Shown here: in pieces, positions 7,672 to 34,770 of the stretch
Layout: each line of letters opens with the position of its first letter
Numbering within the stretch: position 1 is the stretch's first letter
Source: Anaerolineales bacterium
GTDB taxonomy: Bacteria; Chloroflexota; Anaerolineae; Anaerolineales; UBA11858
Reading direction: 5' to 3'
Length of the DNA stretch: 64,000 bases
Assembly (NCBI GenBank): GCA_028278545.1
Contig: JANQED010000138.1
Span: 29,237-93,236 of the forward strand
Program-made: the position numbers and the translations under genes
The notes under the pieces: generated by a model
The model's database searches: none
Told to the model about the DNA's origin: nothing
What the model saw: only the letters and a program-made list of their open reading frames with translations

Positions 7672-8559
7672 ATGGAAAAACAAGTTGGTACATTTGCAGT
7701 CAAAAAAGGACTGGCTCAGATGCTCAAAGGTGGGGTAATTATGGATGTGGTCACTGCCGAACATGCTCGCATCGCTGAGGATGCCGGCGCAGTGGCCGTA
7801 ATGGCATTAGAACGCGTCCCCGCAGATATTCGTGCCCATGGCGGCGTGGCCCGAATGAGTGATCCCGGGCTGATCGAGGAGATCATGGAAGCCGTCTCTA
7901 TCCCTGTAATGGCCAAAGTGCGCATTGGTCACTTTGTCGAGGCGCAGATTCTCGAATCGCTCGGTGTGGACTATGTAGACGAATCCGAGGTGCTCACCCC
8001 AGCCGATGAAGAACACCACATTAACAAACACGACTTCAAGATCCCCTTTGTGTGTGGCTGCCGGAATTTGGGCGAGGCTTTGCGCCGCATTGGGGAGGGC
8101 GCGGCTATGATCCGCACGAAAGGCGAAGCTGGCACAGGCGATGTCGTCGAAGCCGTGCGCCACGCCCGCGCCGTTCTGGGCGAAATCCGTCGTTTACAGA
8201 ACATGCCCGATGAGGAATTGATGGCTTACGCCAAGAACATCGGTGCACCCTATGAGATCGTCAGGGAAACCAAGGAACTGGGCCGTCTGCCGGTGGTCAA
8301 CTTCGCCGCCGGCGGTATTGCCACCCCTGCGGATGCAGCGTTAATGATGCAGTTAGGCGTCGATGGGAACTTCGTCGGTTCGGGAATCTTCAAGTCTGGT
8401 GATCCCGCCCGGCGGGCTGCTGCCATCGTCAAGGCCACCACCCATTTCAACGATCCTGATATCCTGGCCGAGGTCAGCCGTAACCTGGGTGAGCCCATGG
8501 TGGGCCGTCAGGTGACGGATATCCCCGAAATGGAATTGATCGCCCAGCGAGGATGGTAG
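7672..8559 (+). CDS. pdxS: Pyridoxal 5'-phosphate synthase, lyase subunit PdxS
   Basis: 295 aa. [21 protein letters not shown], highly conserved PdxS/SNZ sequence. Confidence 0.97.
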
Positions 8560-25991: not shown

Positions 25992-26100
25992 GTCACCGTG
26001 GATGTCCTGATAGTAGTCAGGTGAGAGGCAAGCAAAAAGCCATCGCATATTGGTTAGCGTGGCTTTGAATGACAACGTATGTGAATATCTGAGCGCAGCC

Positions 26101-26925
26101 ATGTCCAAACTCAACGATTCCCAATACTTGCTCAAAGAGCAATACCAGGATGCTGAGAAGCTCAATGCCCGCATCCGTCTGCACGTCGAGTTCAGCACCA
26201 ACAAATACGGCTGGCTTCCCTGGGTTTTCGACCATTACAACCTACCCGAAGAGTGCCGCATCCTTGAGTTGGGCTGCGGACAAGGGGATTTATGGCGGGA
26301 GAACATCGAACGCATCCCGACTGGGTGGGAGGTTACCCTCTCAGATTTTTCACCCGGGATGCTGGCCCAGGCCCGGCAGAATTTGGAGGGGCAGCCCCAC
26401 CCCTTTACCTTCGAAGTCATCGACGCCCAGTCGATCCCCTACGATGACGATCACTTCGACGCTGTGATCGCCAACCACTGCATTTACCATTTCCCCGACC
26501 GGTCCAAAGCGTTCTCGGAGATTCGCCGCACGTTGAAAGCAGGCAGCTACCTCTATGCCACCACAATCGGCAGAGCGCATCTCCAGGGAATGGCGGAATT
26601 AGCTTCCAAATTTGAACATCCAATCGAGAATCTCTTCAACACCGATAATAATCCGTTTACGCTGGAAAATGGAGCACCCCAGCTTCGTGAATGGTTCGCG
26701 GATATAGAGCTTGACCGCTACCCAGATTCATTAGATGTGACCGAAGCCGCACCGCTGGTGGATTTCATCATCTCCAGCGTGCGATTCAGCCTGGACGAAA
26801 CCCGCCATGCTGAGTTTCTGACCTTCGTCGAGCGCGAGTTGACAGCCTCTGGAGGGGTGATCCGCATCAAGAAGGACAGTGGCATATTCAAGGCGCGCAA
26901 ACCCGCCTTACAGCACGAATCTTGA
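26101..26925 (+). CDS. Class I SAM-dependent methyltransferase
   Basis: ILELGCGQGDL motif I. An alternative upstream start lies at 26050. Confidence 0.75.
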   Translation: MSKLNDSQYLLKEQYQDAEKLNARIRLHVEFSTNKYGWLPWVFDHYNLPEECRILELGCGQGDLWRENIERIPTGWEVTLSDFSPGMLAQARQNLEGQPHPFTFEVIDAQSIPYDDDHFDAVIANHCIYHFPDRSKAFSEIRRTLKAGSYLYATTIGRAHLQGMAELASKFEHPIENLFNTDNNPFTLENGAPQLREWFADIELDRYPDSLDVTEAAPLVDFIISSVRFSLDETRHAEFLTFVERELTASGGVIRIKKDSGIFKARKPALQHES

Positions 26926-26950
26926 CGGATATCATTTCCAGTGCTAGACT
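26922..26950 (+). promoter_or_regulatory. Promoter of the Lys-leader/lysX unit
   Basis: TTGACG (26922-26927), 17-nt spacer ending in TGC, TAGACT (26945-26950). The leader ATG is 10 nt after the -10 box. Confidence 0.55.
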
Positions 26951-26960
26951 CCACCCCAAT

Positions 26961-27059
26961 ATGTTGATCTCTTTCGTGCACACCTCCGCCAAGAAGTCCA
27001 AGAAGAGCCAAAAGTCGCTGAGTTTTACGGCTTTCGGTCGTTTGAGGTTGCACGGATGA
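26961..27059 (+). CDS. Candidate Lys-codon-rich leader peptide (32 aa)
   Basis: My own translation: [32 protein letters not shown]. Five AAG codons fall within codons 11-18. The ORF lies between the promoter and an intrinsic terminator. Confidence 0.5.
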
Positions 27060-27104
27060 AATCTCTTACTTGATCGAACCAGTTACGATCTACGAACCGC
27101 CCTC

Positions 27105-27150
27105 TGGATTGAAAGCCGCAGAAGGGCGGTTTTTTGTTTTAGAAATTGGA
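27105..27150 (+). terminator. Intrinsic terminator (attenuator) immediately upstream of lysX
   Basis: AACCGCCCT (27105-27113) pairs with AGGGCGGTT (27133-27141), followed by TTTTTGTTTT. The lysX RBS and ATG follow at 27146-27160. Confidence 0.7.
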
Positions 27151-27159
27151 GGTAGCACT

Positions 27160-28119
27160 ATGACATCCCCGCATATCGGTATTTTATTCTCTCGAGTCCG
27201 CGTAGAAGAGAAATGGATCTTTGGGGCTTTAGAACAACGCGGGGTAAAGTTTACCCGCCTTAAAGACGATCAGATCAGGTTCGATCTGGAAAACAAGGGA
27301 GCCTGGTCACAATTCGATGTCCTCCTGGCGCGCAATCTCAGCTACACGCGCGGATTATACGCTTTGCGGGTGCTCAATTCCTGGGGGATTCCAACCGTCA
27401 ACAGCGCCCATGTGGCAGAGACTTGTGGTGATAAGTTGAACACCACGGCTGCGCTGGCACGCGCTGGGATACCGCAGCCGAAAACAGCAATCGCCTTCGC
27501 GCCAGAATCCGCCTTGGAGGCTATCGAGGAAATTGGCTACCCGGTGGTGCTCAAACCAGTGATCGGTTCCTGGGGGCGCTTACTTTCCAAGATCAACGAT
27601 CGCGATGCCGCCGAAACCATCCTGGAGCATAAATCCCTGCTCGGGTCTTACCAACATTCGGTCTTCTATGTGCAGGAATATATCGAAAAGCCCAGCCGGG
27701 ATATCCGCGCTTTTGTGATCAACAACGAAACAGTGTGCGCGATTTATCGCAACTCCGCTCACTGGATCACGAATACGGCGCGCGGCGCTTCAGGAGAGAT
27801 TTGTGTGGTGACCCCAGAGATCGACGATTTATGCGTGAGGGCCGCGAAAGCCGTAGGCGGCGGCGTCCTGGCGATAGACCTTGTCGAACACCCTCAAGAG
27901 GGCTTGCAGGTTCTCGAAGTTAATCACACCATGGAGTTTCATACGACTGTACCGCTCACGGGCGTAGACTTACCCAATATATTGATCGATTACTTATTGG
28001 ATGTGGCAAAGGGCAAGATAGACGATATCAGACAGCACACAATTGCTCCAGAACCACACCACCCTACGGAAACGATGTATTCCCCAACAACCTCTCGGCA
28101 GGAATCATTTAGGGCATAA
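27160..28119 (+). CDS. lysX: LysX-type ATP-grasp ligase (alpha-aminoadipate--LysW ligase candidate)
   Basis: 319 aa from ATG 27160 (GGAGG RBS). [24 protein letters not shown]..., ATP-grasp core. Close paralogue of 31326..32198. Confidence 0.8.
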
Positions 28120-28133
28120 CATAAAAAATCACC

Positions 28134-28162
28134 TTGACTAATCCATGCTAGGATGCTAGACT
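28134..28162 (+). promoter_or_regulatory. Promoter of the Arg-leader/argG unit
   Basis: TTGACT (28134-28139), 17-nt spacer ending in TGC, TAGACT (28157-28162). Same architecture as the promoter at 26922-26950. Confidence 0.55.
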
Positions 28163-28175
28163 TCGCCCTAATATC

Positions 28176-28265
28176 ATGGCAAACCCAATTATTGCAAACG
28201 TCCGTCGCGCTCGTCCTAAGAACCCGCCCCCCACCCGGGAAGGTCGGGCGTTTGTGTTTGGGTAA
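28176..28265 (+). CDS. Candidate Arg-codon-rich leader peptide (29 aa)
   Basis: My own translation: MANPIIANVRRARPKNPPPTREGRAFVFG. Five Arg codons, including CGT CGC GCT CGT, plus a PPP tract. Followed by an intrinsic terminator. Confidence 0.45.
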   Translation: MANPIIANVRRARPKNPPPTREGRAFVFG

Positions 28266-28304
28266 TCAGTAAAAGCAAACTACACGCTCTATTCTTGTAA
28301 GCAC

Positions 28305-28337
28305 AGCCCTCCTTCCCCAGGAGGGCTTTTTTATTTT
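28305..28337 (+). terminator. Intrinsic terminator (attenuator) upstream of argG
   Basis: AGCCCTCCT (28305-28313), 5-nt loop, AGGAGGGCT (28319-28327), then TTTTTTATTTT. Confidence 0.75.
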
Positions 28338-33298: not shown

Positions 33299-34141
33299 AT
33301 GACCAACCCCCGGTCAGGGACATTTGATCACCAATCTATGATCGTTGTAAAGCTCGGCGGTGCTGAGGGCGTGGATTTTTCGGCCATCTGCCAGGATGCA
33401 GCCGCGCTGTTGGAGCAAGGTCAACGCCTGGTTTTGGTGCACGGCGGCTCAGCGGAGGCCAACGCTTTAGGAGAAACTATCGGGCATCCCCCTCGTTTTG
33501 TGACCTCCCCTTCAGGCTTCACCTCCCGCTACACGGACCGCAAAACCCTTGAGATTTTCGCCGCGGCGGTAAACGGTAAGATCAATACCCTTTTAGTGGA
33601 ACAGCTTCAGAGGCTGGGCGTAAACGCATTTGGCCTGAGCGGTCTCGATGGGCGGCTGATGGTCGCCAAGCGCAAGGCTGCCATCCGCATCATTGAAAAC
33701 GGGAAGCGCAAAATATTGCGTGATGACTACACCGGAAAGATCCAACAGGTCAATGCGCAGTGGCTTATGACGCTGTTGGGGTCAGGAATCACCCCTGTGA
33801 TCGCCCCGTTAGCAGTCAGTGAACTGGGCGAGGCCCTCAACGTCGACGCCGACCGGGCAGCGGCCATGATCGCGGCGGCCTTGAAAGTCGATACGCTGTT
33901 GTTGCTGACTGCTGCCCGGGGCCTGCTGAAGGGTTTCCCCGACGAGAGCACGCTCATCAAAAAGATGTCAACGTCAGACCTGGAAGGCGCGTTGGAAATT
34001 GCCCAGGGCCGAATGAAAAAAAAGGTGCTCGGCGCGCAGGAAGCGCTGACAGGCGGCGTGGCTAAAGTGATCATCGCCGACGGACGAGTACAGAAACCTA
34101 TCAGCAACGCATTGGAAGGGAATGGAACGGTAATTCTATGA
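33299..34141 (+). CDS. lysZ: [LysW]-aminoadipate/glutamate kinase (ArgB/LysZ family)
   Basis: IVVKLGGAEG, VLVHGGS amino-acid-kinase motifs. Start moved to ATG 33299. Confidence 0.85.
   Translation: MTNPRSGTFDHQSMIVVKLGGAEGVDFSAICQDAAALLEQGQRLVLVHGGSAEANALGETIGHPPRFVTSPSGFTSRYTDRKTLEIFAAAVNGKINTLLVEQLQRLGVNAFGLSGLDGRLMVAKRKAAIRIIENGKRKILRDDYTGKIQQVNAQWLMTLLGSGITPVIAPLAVSELGEALNVDADRAAAMIAAALKVDTLLLLTAARGLLKGFPDESTLIKKMSTSDLEGALEIAQGRMKKKVLGAQEALTGGVAKVIIADGRVQKPISNALEGNGTVIL

Positions 34142-34770
<629 letters not shown>

What the first reader, a model, noticed from the sequence alone, without database searches (positions are those of the whole stretch)
26961..27150. Candidate lysine-sensing leader-peptide attenuator upstream of lysX
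A promoter at 26922-26950 is followed within 10 nt by a 32-codon [35 protein letters not shown], with five AAG codons packed into codons 11-18. A strong intrinsic terminator follows (27105-27141 stem plus TTTTTGTTTT), and the lysX RBS comes right after it. Leader-peptide attenuation using tandem Lys codons has been reported for the Thermus thermophilus AAA lysine cluster, and this looks like an analogous device. By eye, CGGCTTTC (27028-27035) is complementary to GAAAGCCG (27121-27128) inside the terminator loop. I could not establish a clean antiterminator alternative.
Basis: partly seen in the sequence, partly recalled or inferred. Interest (0 to 1): 0.6.

Follow-up and report, generated by a model that had tools for sequence, protein, structure and literature searches.

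The report
Lysine leader-peptide attenuator upstream of lysX
A tiny lysine-rich reading frame and a transcription stop signal in front of a lysine-biosynthesis gene (lysX) of an uncultured Anaerolineae bacterium most likely act as a classical ribosome-operated switch that turns the gene on when lysine runs short. It is an undescribed but not surprising example of a well-known kind of control.

Summary
A sigma-70-type promoter (26922-26950) is followed, 10 nt after its -10 box, by a 32-codon ORF (26961-27059) with five AAG Lys codons in codons 11-18. Then come a strong intrinsic terminator (27095-27131, T-tract to 27140) and the lysX RBS and ATG (27148, 27160).

All 15 distinct orthologous lysX loci recovered from Anaerolineae carry a Lys-run leader ORF plus terminator at this position, whatever gene lies upstream.

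Three mutually exclusive helices are conserved:
- end of the Lys run with segment 2 (27007-16 : 27029-38);
- the terminator itself.

The adjacent argG-argH-lysW-lysX2... operon has a twin device with an Arg run (28176-28265), present in 43 of 48 loci. Related loci show His-run (hisG), Thr-run (aspartokinase) and Lys-run (homocitrate synthase) leaders with the same layout.

The best reading is a ribosome-mediated transcription attenuator that senses Lys-tRNA charging. It is absent from Rfam and is a new member of a known kind. There is no experimental support, and covariation is weak because the sequences are conserved.

The parts
26922..26950 (+). Promoter: -35 TTGACG, 17-nt spacer, extended -10 TGcTAGACT
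   Evidence: Found by the consensus scan. -35 TTGAC and -10 TAAACT/TAGACT are conserved at the same distance from the leader ATG in 12 orthologues.
26961..27059 (+). Leader ORF, 32 codons ([32 protein letters not shown]). It has no Shine-Dalgarno sequence, and its ATG lies 10 nt after the -10 box, so the 5' UTR is inferred to be about 3 nt (near-leaderless).
   Evidence: The ATG is invariant, and the two upstream indels in the alignment (A2) are each 3 nt long.
26991..27014 (+). Regulatory Lys-codon run: AAG at codons 11, 12, 14, 15 and 18
   Evidence: Lys at positions 12, 14, 15 and 18 is kept in at least 10 of 12 core orthologues, with some AAA/AAG synonymous changes, while the spacer codons vary. 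The run is rare in the window.
27007..27016 (+). Segment 1 (GCCAAAAGTC), the 5' strand of the anti-antiterminator hairpin. It overlaps the last Lys codon.
   Evidence: RNAalifold consensus helix. 86.7% of cells are paired, against 20-56% in shifted registers.
27028..27047 (+). Segment 2 (CGGCTTTCGGTC...GAGG). It pairs either with segment 1 or with the terminator loop and 5' arm.
27095..27118 (+). Segment 3: terminator 5' arm (AACCGCCCTCTG) plus the conserved loop (GATTGAAAGCCG). It is the target of segment 2 in the antiterminator.
   Evidence: The loop sequence GGATTGAAAGC is conserved in orthologues whose LysX is as little as 69% identical.
27119..27140 (+). Segment 4: terminator 3' arm (27119-27131) and the T-tract TTTTTTGTTTT
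   Evidence: 89.7% of cells are paired, and 3 pairs show changes on both sides.
27148..28119 (+). lysX paralogue 1: RBS GGAGG at 27148-27152, ATG at 27160, stop at 28119
   Evidence: TIGR02144 LysX, 340 bits against a cut-off of 275.6. The best solved relative is Thermus LysX, 3vpd/1uc8. Orthologues are followed by homocitrate synthase in L201 and L217.
28134..28337 (+). Companion unit on the next operon. It consists of the promoter TTGACT-17-TGcTAGACT (28134-28162), an Arg-run leader ORF at 28176-28265 (MANPIIANVRRARPKNPPPTREGRAFVFG), and a terminator at 28305-28327 plus T-tract. It precedes argG-argH-lysW-lysX2-lysY-lysZ...lysJ-lysK.
   Evidence: An Arg-run leader plus terminator is present in 43 of 48 loci. 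The logic of alternative pairings is the same.

Best explanation
This is a ribosome-mediated (leader-peptide) transcription attenuator that makes lysX expression depend on the supply of charged tRNA-Lys.

Proposed mechanism:
1. Transcription starts a few nucleotides before the ATG at 26961 (inferred), and the 32-codon leader is translated while the RNA is being made.
2. When lysine is plentiful, the ribosome runs through the five AAG codons. Behind it, segment 1 (27007-27016, the end of the Lys run) pairs with segment 2 (27029-27038). The terminator hairpin (27095-27131 plus T-tract) then forms, and most transcripts end at about 27135-27140, before lysX.
3. When lysine is scarce, the ribosome stalls with a Lys codon in its A site and covers segment 1. 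Segment 2 is left free to pair with the terminator loop and the top of its 5' arm as these emerge (27028-27039 with 27107-27118; 27044-27047 with 27101-27104). The terminator cannot close, and RNA polymerase reads into lysX.

Shown here: all the sequence elements, their conservation, and the three mutually exclusive pairings.
Inferred: the transcription start, translation of the leader, the timing of events, and the response to lysine.
For: (1) Anatomy in the window: promoter, ORF, five AAG codons, terminator and lysX RBS.

(2) Conservation. All 15 distinct lysX-paralogue-1 loci with enough upstream sequence have a Lys-run leader ORF followed by a terminator. The core motif is KKxKKxxK in 12 of them. 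Three distant, unalignable leaders (L009, L219, L061) carry KKK, KKKTK and KQKK. The upstream neighbours differ: a methyltransferase, a peptidase-like gene and others.

(3) RNAalifold on the 12 core leaders predicts exactly two helices, segment 1:2 and the terminator.

(4) Percentage of cells paired:
- terminator: 89.7%
- antiterminator: 92.7%
- segment 1:2: 86.7%
- shifted registers: 20-61%
The terminator has 3 pairs with changes on both sides, for example C-G to U-A in L209.

(5) In transcripts truncated before the 3' arm, masking the RNA up to the stalled ribosome makes segment 2 pair with the loop and 5' arm in nearly all orthologues. In the free RNA of 7 of 12 orthologues, including the window, segment 2 is held by upstream sequence.

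(6) The 2:3 duplex is -26 kcal/mol in the window and is matched or beaten by at most 8 of 300 shuffles in 12 of 15 loci.

(7) The amino acid matches the pathway each time in the same architecture:
- Arg-run leader before argG in 43 of 48 loci;
- Lys-run leaders before homocitrate synthase in Thermanaerothrix and L060;
- a six-His leader before hisG and a Thr-run leader before aspartokinase.

(8) In L203 a 1-nt insertion changes the reading frame after the Lys run but leaves the segment-2 nucleotides intact. So segment 2 is conserved as RNA, and only the Lys run is conserved as codons.
Against: - There is no experimental evidence of any kind.
- Covariation is weak. For the 1:2 and 2:3 helices the shuffle controls are not exceeded, so support comes from conserved complementarity, not compensatory change. 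The 12 core sequences are related.
- Equilibrium folds of the full leader keep the very stable terminator even with a ribosome mask, so the model needs a co-transcriptional (kinetic) argument.
- A ribosome parked at the stop codon (27057) does not cover the 12-nt core of segment 2. Folds with that mask still give the antiterminator in the window. Termination in high lysine must therefore rely on the local 1:2 hairpin re-forming first, which differs from the trp textbook picture.
- In 4 of 12 orthologues the free truncated RNA already prefers the 2:3 pairing.
- The leader ORF has no Shine-Dalgarno sequence, so its translation depends on an inferred near-leaderless start.
- One orthologue (L212) has only 3 Lys codons.
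- AAG is not a rare codon here: 221 AAG against 338 AAA.
Confidence: 0.8

Rival explanations
1. The conserved leader RNA is a translation-independent sensor: a new riboswitch, or a target of an RNA-binding protein or tRNA. On this view the Lys-rich ORF is a by-product of an A-rich strand that must pair with GGCUUUY.
For: The segments are conserved at the nucleotide level, and segment 1 (CCAAAAGCC) itself encodes the last Lys. There is no Shine-Dalgarno sequence before the ORF. Covariation cannot discriminate between the models.
Against: - No Rfam family matches: no L-box, no T-box and nothing else.
- The ATG sits at a fixed distance from the -10 box, and the two upstream indels in the alignment (A2) are each 3 nt long.
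- Lys runs recur in leaders with unrelated sequence, namely L009, L219, L061 and the homocitrate synthase leaders.
- The enriched amino acid switches with the pathway (Arg, His, Thr) in the same architecture. A ligand-binding RNA would not produce that pattern.
Confidence: 0.07
2. The hairpin is only the terminator of the upstream methyltransferase gene (26050-26925), and the small ORF is a chance reading frame.
For: No other terminator lies between that gene and lysX. Mechanical ORF lists contain many small ORFs.
Against: - A good promoter lies between the gene's end and the ORF.
- The leader plus terminator travels with lysX next to at least six different upstream genes.
- The terminator loop is conserved and is complementary to the ORF interior.
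- Lys runs are rare: 2 of 667 small ORFs.
Confidence: 0.03
3. The leader ORF is translated and controls lysX, but by another route. It could act through the basic nascent peptide (a KKxKK arrest motif), through general translation status, or through Rho or mRNA stability, instead of sensing tRNA-Lys charging via the intrinsic terminator.
For: Runs of basic residues can slow ribosomes. Arg-codon-dependent uORF control acting through RNA stability and Rho is documented for Salmonella speF (PMC6386406). Leaderless poly-Cys sORFs in mycobacteria act on translation, not termination (bioRxiv 10.1101/834739).
Against: - A canonical terminator with a T-tract lies immediately before an unobstructed lysX RBS, and the alternative pairing targets that terminator, not the RBS.
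- His- and Thr-run leaders of the same design are not basic.
- Peptide sequence outside the run is not conserved between leader groups.
Confidence: 0.08

Closest known systems
Leader-peptide attenuator of the Thermus thermophilus alpha-aminoadipate lysine cluster (Tsubouchi et al., J Biol Chem 2005). Cited from my own knowledge; the paper could not be retrieved.
   Same: Tandem Lys codons sit in a short leader ORF, followed by a terminator, ahead of a gene of the LysW/alpha-aminoadipate lysine pathway. In Thermanaerothrix (L006, L008) and L060 the Lys-run leader also sits before homocitrate synthase, as in Thermus.
   Different: The phylum is different (Chloroflexota, class Anaerolineae). In this window the regulated gene is lysX, not homocitrate synthase. 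The leader is 32 codons with the pattern KKxKKxxK, and its start is near-leaderless. Sequence homology to the Thermus leader could not be tested here.
Classical enterobacterial amino-acid operon attenuators: trpL, hisL, thrL, leuL, pheL (Rfam RF00513, RF00514, RF00506, RF00512, RF01859)
   Same: The four-segment logic is the same (1:2 and 3:4 versus 2:3). The regulatory codons lie in or next to segment 1. An intrinsic terminator precedes the first biosynthetic gene.
   Different: There is no sequence or structure match to any Rfam leader family. Even the obvious six-His leader of L212 scores only 20.6 bits against a threshold of 49. The antiterminator strand pairs mainly with the terminator loop and only 4 nt of its 5' arm. 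The stop codon lies about 17 nt beyond the segment-2 core, so a terminating ribosome does not cover that core. The leader ORF has no Shine-Dalgarno sequence.
Leaderless poly-Cys short ORFs of mycobacteria (Canestrari et al., bioRxiv 10.1101/834739)
   Same: A sensory short ORF begins at or next to the transcript's 5' end. Several operons share the design and respond through ribosome stalling (the 'ribulon' idea).
   Different: Those ORFs unmask a downstream ribosome-binding site, which is translational control. Here the target is an intrinsic terminator. The amino acid and the phylum also differ.
Lysine riboswitch (L-box, RF00168)
   Same: It is the usual lysine-responsive leader upstream of bacterial lysine genes and often acts through a terminator.
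   Different: It is not present: no Rfam hit in the leader or anywhere in the window. The leader here is too short and carries a conserved ORF.
Salmonella speF orf34 (PMC6386406)
   Same: Consecutive Arg codons in an upstream ORF sense arginine through ribosome pausing. This is relevant to the companion Arg-run leader at 28176.
   Different: That system acts through Rho and RNase G on an ornithine decarboxylase mRNA. It does not use an intrinsic terminator before arginine-biosynthesis genes.

Membership tests
Ribosome-mediated (leader-peptide) transcription attenuator | A short ORF starts close behind a promoter, upstream of the structural gene | tested here: met
   Promoter at 26922-26950 and ORF at 26961-27059. 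The layout is conserved in 12 orthologues.
Ribosome-mediated (leader-peptide) transcription attenuator | A cluster of codons for the amino acid made by the regulated pathway | tested here: met
   Five AAG codons within 8 codons. A Lys run is present in 15 of 15 orthologous leaders. Such runs are rare in the window.
Ribosome-mediated (leader-peptide) transcription attenuator | An intrinsic terminator lies between the leader ORF and the structural gene | tested here: met
   Hairpin at 27095-27131 (-19 to -20.6 kcal/mol) plus a T-tract. 89.7% of cells are paired, with 3 doubly changed pairs.
Ribosome-mediated (leader-peptide) transcription attenuator | An antiterminator pairing that is mutually exclusive with the terminator | tested here: met
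   27028-27039 pairs with 27107-27118, and 27044-27047 with 27101-27104. 92.7% of cells are paired, against 27-61% when shifted. The pairing forms in masked truncated folds. Its energy is -26 kcal/mol, matched or beaten by 2 of 300 shuffles. It covers mainly the loop, so exclusion of the stem is partly a steric inference.
Ribosome-mediated (leader-peptide) transcription attenuator | An anti-antiterminator (1:2) that overlaps the regulatory codons, so that a stalled ribosome prevents it | tested here: met
   27007-27016 pairs with 27029-27038, predicted by RNAalifold. 86.7% of cells are paired. A footprint with its A site at codon 14, 15 or 18 covers segment 1 (arithmetic).
Ribosome-mediated (leader-peptide) transcription attenuator | The leader ORF is translated, and read-through rises when the amino acid is scarce | not testable with these tools
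   This needs TSS mapping, ribosome profiling, Term-seq and reporter assays.
Rfam amino-acid leader families (RF00506, RF00512, RF00513, RF00514, RF01859) | Covariance-model match at or above the gathering score | tested here: not met
   No leader family appears even at E<=10 in 26700-27400, and nothing reaches the gathering score in the whole window.
Lysine riboswitch (RF00168) / T-box (RF00230) | Covariance-model match | tested here: not met
Thermus thermophilus lysine-cluster leader | A tandem-Lys leader ORF plus terminator upstream of a gene of the alpha-aminoadipate/LysW pathway | tested here: met
   Orthologous leaders also sit before homocitrate synthase. The description of the Thermus element comes from my own knowledge.
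Thermus thermophilus lysine-cluster leader | Sequence homology of the leader RNA or peptide | not tested
LysX ([LysW]-aminoadipate ligase) | Family model above its cut-off and closest to characterised LysX | tested here: met
   TIGR02144 scores 340.4 bits against a cut-off of 275.6. The top PDB hits are Thermus LysX 3vpd and 1uc8.
LysX ([LysW]-aminoadipate ligase) | Five-residue specificity motif: LysX F-I-T-NS, ArgX I-Y-V-GF, bifunctional Y-I-T-NA (PMC12998189) | tested here: inconclusive
   Paralogue 1 has F185-I195-T206-TT(262-263) and paralogue 2 has F-I-T-TA. Both are LysX-like at three positions. Neither matches a published type at the last two positions. Genomic context favours lysine for paralogue 1, since it sits next to homocitrate synthase in L201 and L217. 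It favours arginine or a dual role for paralogue 2, which follows lysW in the argGH operon.

The most novel reading that the evidence does not exclude
The lysX leader may be one element of a phylum-level set of near-leaderless leader-peptide attenuators in Anaerolineae (Lys, Arg, His and Thr seen here), all sharing one promoter/CCCAAT-ATG/terminator chassis. In this genome two of them would divide a shared LysW carrier-protein pathway:
- the Lys leader gates the lysine-specific ligase;
- the Arg leader gates argGH plus the shared lysW-X2-Y-Z-J-K enzymes.

The Arg leader may take two inputs. 23 of 41 distinct Arg leaders place a Lys codon within two codons after the Arg run, and transcripts released from the lysX attenuator run straight into it. 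If so, the shared enzymes would rise under either starvation. This would also be, to my knowledge, the first leader-peptide transcription attenuator for arginine biosynthesis.
Probability: 0.3. Interest if true: 0.7.

Novelty: new member of a known kind. Interest (0 to 1): 0.5.

Why it matters
Leader-peptide attenuation has been documented mainly in Proteobacteria, Actinobacteria, some Firmicutes and Thermus. I found no description for Chloroflexota in the searchable literature, and nothing in Rfam matches.

The result gives a concrete, testable regulatory model for lysine and arginine biosynthesis through the LysW carrier pathway in a large, mostly uncultured lineage. It shows how a branch-specific enzyme (LysX) can be controlled separately from shared enzymes.

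It also supplies a set of conserved short ORFs that gene callers miss or label hypothetical. Cultured relatives (Thermanaerothrix, Anaerolinea) carry sister elements, so the model can be tested experimentally.

Tried and rejected
- **Metagenome DNA-pattern scan.** A scan for the conserved terminator loop (CCYCYGGATTGAAAGC) returned 120 hits. All were chance matches without LysX.
- **Genome scan with a LysX alignment.** It returned mostly the lysW-linked paralogue 2. Only about 7 of 80 loci were paralogue 1, so further orthologues came from exact-protein look-ups. L204 had too little upstream sequence.
- **Equilibrium folding of the full leader with ribosome masks.** It did not switch off the terminator in most sequences. 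I replaced it with truncated-transcript (co-transcriptional) folds.
- **Rfam.** At permissive thresholds it gave only snoRNA noise.
- **Thermus paper.** Attempts to retrieve the Thermus attenuation paper, or any Chloroflexi attenuator paper, failed.
- **Specificity motif.** Using the published LysX/ArgX motif to assign the two paralogues was inconclusive.
- **Other lysine genes in the window.** A search for homocitrate synthase or homoisocitrate dehydrogenase found none.
- **Hypotheses rejected.** I considered and rejected an L-box riboswitch, a T-box, and a plain terminator of the upstream gene.

Full report
**What is in the sequence**

A promoter, TTGACG-17 nt-TGcTAGACT, lies at 26922-26950 and is also picked up by the consensus scan. 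An ATG at 26961 opens a 32-codon [35 protein letters not shown], with its stop at 27057-59. Codons 11, 12, 14, 15 and 18 are all AAG.

A G+C-rich hairpin (27095/27097-27131, -19 to -20.6 kcal/mol) is followed by TTTTTTGTTTT. Then come GGAGG (27148-52) and the lysX ATG at 27160.

Two coordinates in the finding are wrong by about 10 nt. The terminator stem begins near 27095, not 27105. GAAAGCCG is at 27111-27118, not 27121-27128. There is no Shine-Dalgarno sequence before the leader ATG, which lies 10 nt after the -10 box. If the promoter is real, the 5' UTR is therefore only about 3 nt (inference).

**Is it more than chance?**

- Only 2 of 667 small ORFs (six frames) reach 5 or more Lys in 8 codons, and Lys is 3.4% of codons in long ORFs.
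- A scan of the whole window for a good promoter, an ATG 8-13 nt after the -10 box, a short ORF and a terminator finds exactly two units. One is this one. The other starts at 28176 and encodes MANPIIANVRRARPKNPPPTREGRAFVFG, with an Arg run.
- That second unit sits in front of argG-argH-lysW-lysX2-lysY(argC)-lysZ(argB)...lysJ-lysK.

**Genes and organism**

The gene behind the Lys leader matches LysX (TIGR02144, 340 bits against a cut-off of 275.6). Its best solved relatives are Thermus LysX structures. A second LysX homologue follows lysW in the arg operon.

Homologues place the window in an uncultured Anaerolineae (Chloroflexota) bacterium. Orthologues of paralogue 1 are followed by homocitrate synthase in L201 and L217, which ties it to alpha-aminoadipate lysine synthesis. 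The published five-residue specificity motif (PMC12998189) does not decide the matter: paralogue 1 is F-I-T-TT and paralogue 2 is F-I-T-TA.

**Conservation of the leader**

From the genome scan and exact-protein look-ups I obtained 15 distinct loci of paralogue 1 with enough upstream DNA. All 15 have a short ORF with a Lys run followed by a terminator before lysX.

Twelve are alignable with the window. Examples are MLISTVQTSTKKAKKSQKLLTFSAFGLLRLHG, MNYSIVLSTQKVKKNRKPLSTPAFGHVRLDR and MHNPVYTLVAKKVKKCRKPHPWLSACSG. L212 is the weakest, with 3 Lys. Three others (L009, L219, L061) are unrelated in sequence and led by a Shine-Dalgarno sequence, yet again carry KKK, KKKTK or KQKK plus a terminator.

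The upstream gene differs among loci, so the element belongs to lysX and not to the preceding gene. In the alignment, the -35 and -10 boxes, the ATG, Lys positions 12, 14, 15 and 18, the stretch GGCTTTCGGTC..GAGGTTG and the terminator including its loop GGATTGAAAGC are all conserved. The two indels before the run are each 3 nt long.

L203 has a 1-nt insertion after the run. It changes the downstream peptide but not the nucleotides of segment 2. That region is therefore conserved as RNA, and only the run is conserved as codons.

**Alternative structures**

RNAalifold on the 12 leaders predicts two consensus helices. One is a hairpin joining the end of the Lys run (27007-27016, GCCAAAAGTC) to 27029-27038 (GGCTTTCGGT). 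The other is the terminator.

It is extended by 27044-27047 (GAGG) with 27101-27104 (CCTC) in the 5' arm.

| Helix | Cells paired |
|---|---|
| Terminator | 89.7% |
| Antiterminator (2:3) | 92.7% |
| Anti-antiterminator (1:2) | 86.7% |
| Shifted registers (controls) | 20-61% |

True compensatory changes are few. There are three doubly changed pairs in the terminator, for example C-G to U-A in L209. The shuffle controls are not exceeded for the other two helices, so the structural evidence is conserved complementarity, not covariation.

The 2:3 duplex is -26 kcal/mol in the window, comparable with the terminator. It is matched or beaten by at most 8 of 300 shuffles in 12 of 15 loci.

**Behaviour in folding simulations**

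With the complete leader, minimum-energy folds keep the terminator whatever is masked, as expected for a kinetically controlled switch.

I then folded transcripts truncated just before the 3' arm.
- In the free RNA of the window and six other orthologues, segment 2 is held by upstream sequence.
- Masking the RNA up to a ribosome stalled in the Lys run makes segment 2 pair with the loop and 5' arm in nearly every orthologue.
- A footprint with its A site at codon 14, 15 or 18 covers segment 1 and ends just before segment 2.

One departure from the trp textbook case should be noted. The stop codon is about 17 nt beyond the segment-2 core, so a terminating ribosome does not cover that core. Termination in high lysine must depend on the nearby 1:2 hairpin forming before the distant 2:3 helix (inference). 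Four orthologues already prefer 2:3 in the free truncated RNA.

**Independent support from sister elements**

- The Arg-run unit has the same promoter-to-ATG layout and the same three-way pairing logic. An Arg-run ORF plus terminator precedes argG in 43 of 48 Anaerolineae loci, with the consensus ..LPRTRRPKPTS...
- Lys-run leaders with terminators precede homocitrate synthase in Thermanaerothrix (MNTTIPIIISELKKSKKIQRTPHR) and in L060.
- A leader with six consecutive His codons precedes hisG in L212 (also L002). A Thr-run leader precedes aspartokinase in L077. All use the same -10/CCCAAT-ATG layout.

The enriched amino acid follows the pathway every time. That is what codon-based sensing predicts and what a ligand-binding RNA would not produce.

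**Comparison with what is known**

Rfam has no match in the leader or anywhere in the window. This negative is uninformative about mechanism, because even the six-His leader scores only 20.6 bits against RF00514's threshold of 49.

The closest functional relative is the Lys leader of the Thermus thermophilus lysine cluster. I cite it from my own knowledge, because the paper could not be retrieved. Leaderless sensory short ORFs are known in mycobacteria (bioRxiv 10.1101/834739). Arg-codon sensing by an upstream ORF is known for Salmonella speF (PMC6386406). I found no report of leader-peptide attenuation in Chloroflexota.

**Verdict**

This is most likely a lysine-responsive leader-peptide transcription attenuator (confidence about 0.8). 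It is a new, conserved member of a known kind, not a new mechanism.

What remains unproven is everything dynamic: the start site, translation of the leader, and lysine-dependent read-through.

The more novel possibility is that this leader and the Arg leader together partition a shared LysW pathway, with a Lys codon embedded after the Arg run in 23 of 41 Arg leaders. That idea is a hypothesis only.

Noticed in passing
window 28134-28337 (+): A second attenuator-like unit: promoter TTGACT-17-TGcTAGACT, Arg-run leader ORF at 28176-28265 (MANPIIANVRRARPKNPPPTREGRAFVFG), and terminator at 28305-28327. It precedes argG-argH-lysW-lysX2-lysY-lysZ..lysJ-lysK. An Arg-run leader plus terminator is present before argG in 43 of 48 Anaerolineae loci. 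I know of no described leader-peptide attenuator for arginine biosynthesis.
   Followed up: partly
window 28215-28220; Arg leaders of L001-L080: 23 of 41 distinct Arg leaders have a Lys codon within two codons after the Arg run (mostly ..RRPKP..), against 2.8% Lys elsewhere in these peptides. There is no terminator between lysX (stop at 28119) and the Arg-leader promoter. The shared LysW-pathway operon may therefore respond to both Arg and Lys starvation.
   Followed up: partly
L212 2530-2613 (+); L002 from 5192 (+): An unmistakable His leader (MNTTILICKHHHHHHASTGNSARAGLL) with the same promoter/CCCAATATG layout and a terminator, upstream of hisG. It scores only 20.6 bits against Rfam His_leader, whose threshold is 49.
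   Followed up: partly
L077, minus strand, starting at reverse-complement position 8328 (plus-strand position 531): A Thr-run leader (MHNLLKSTKHGLGTMTTTSGKRRGAFVLGQR) plus terminator, upstream of an aspartate kinase gene (MPEKQTLVMKFGGTSVG...), with the same layout.
   Followed up: no
L006 721-647 (-), L008 720-646 (-), L060 2401-2270 (-): Lys-run leaders (MNTTIPIIISELKKSKKIQRTPHR; MFRDQASILMKAKAKRKPTS...) plus terminators, upstream of homocitrate synthase-like genes. These genomes include cultured Thermanaerothrix. The L060 enzyme carries a C-terminal LysM/RAM-like domain.
   Followed up: partly
window 26951-26963 and 28163-28178; all leaders in related loci: The stretch between the -10 box and the leader ATG is conserved as ..CCNCCCAAT(N)ATG across Lys, Arg, His and Thr leaders of many genomes. 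It never contains a Shine-Dalgarno sequence. It may mark the start site and a near-leaderless mode of initiation, but its role is unexplained.
   Followed up: no
window 34142-34752 (-): A DUF5615 (PIN-like) / DUF433 gene pair, probably a toxin-antitoxin module. It is inserted on the opposite strand between lysZ (ends at 34141) and lysJ (starts at 34687) and interrupts the arg/lys operon.
   Followed up: partly
window 28020-28119: LysX paralogue 1 has a C-terminal tail of about 30 residues (..[32 protein letters not shown]) that is absent from paralogue 2 and from Thermus LysX. Several orthologues are similarly long, at 313-324 aa.
   Followed up: no
L002 3813-3998, L003 3884-3998, L206 1378-1501, L212 1134-1501: In some orthologues 110-370 nt of unrelated sequence lie between the leader terminator and lysX, against about 25 nt in the window. 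The content of these inserts was not examined.
   Followed up: no
L026, L042, L043, L045, L056, L074 (5' ends of the loci): A more distant LysX-like gene (53-59% identical) lies upstream of argG-argH-lysW-lysX2, at the position occupied by paralogue 1 in the window. Its upstream region was cut off, so I do not know whether it has a Lys leader.
   Followed up: no
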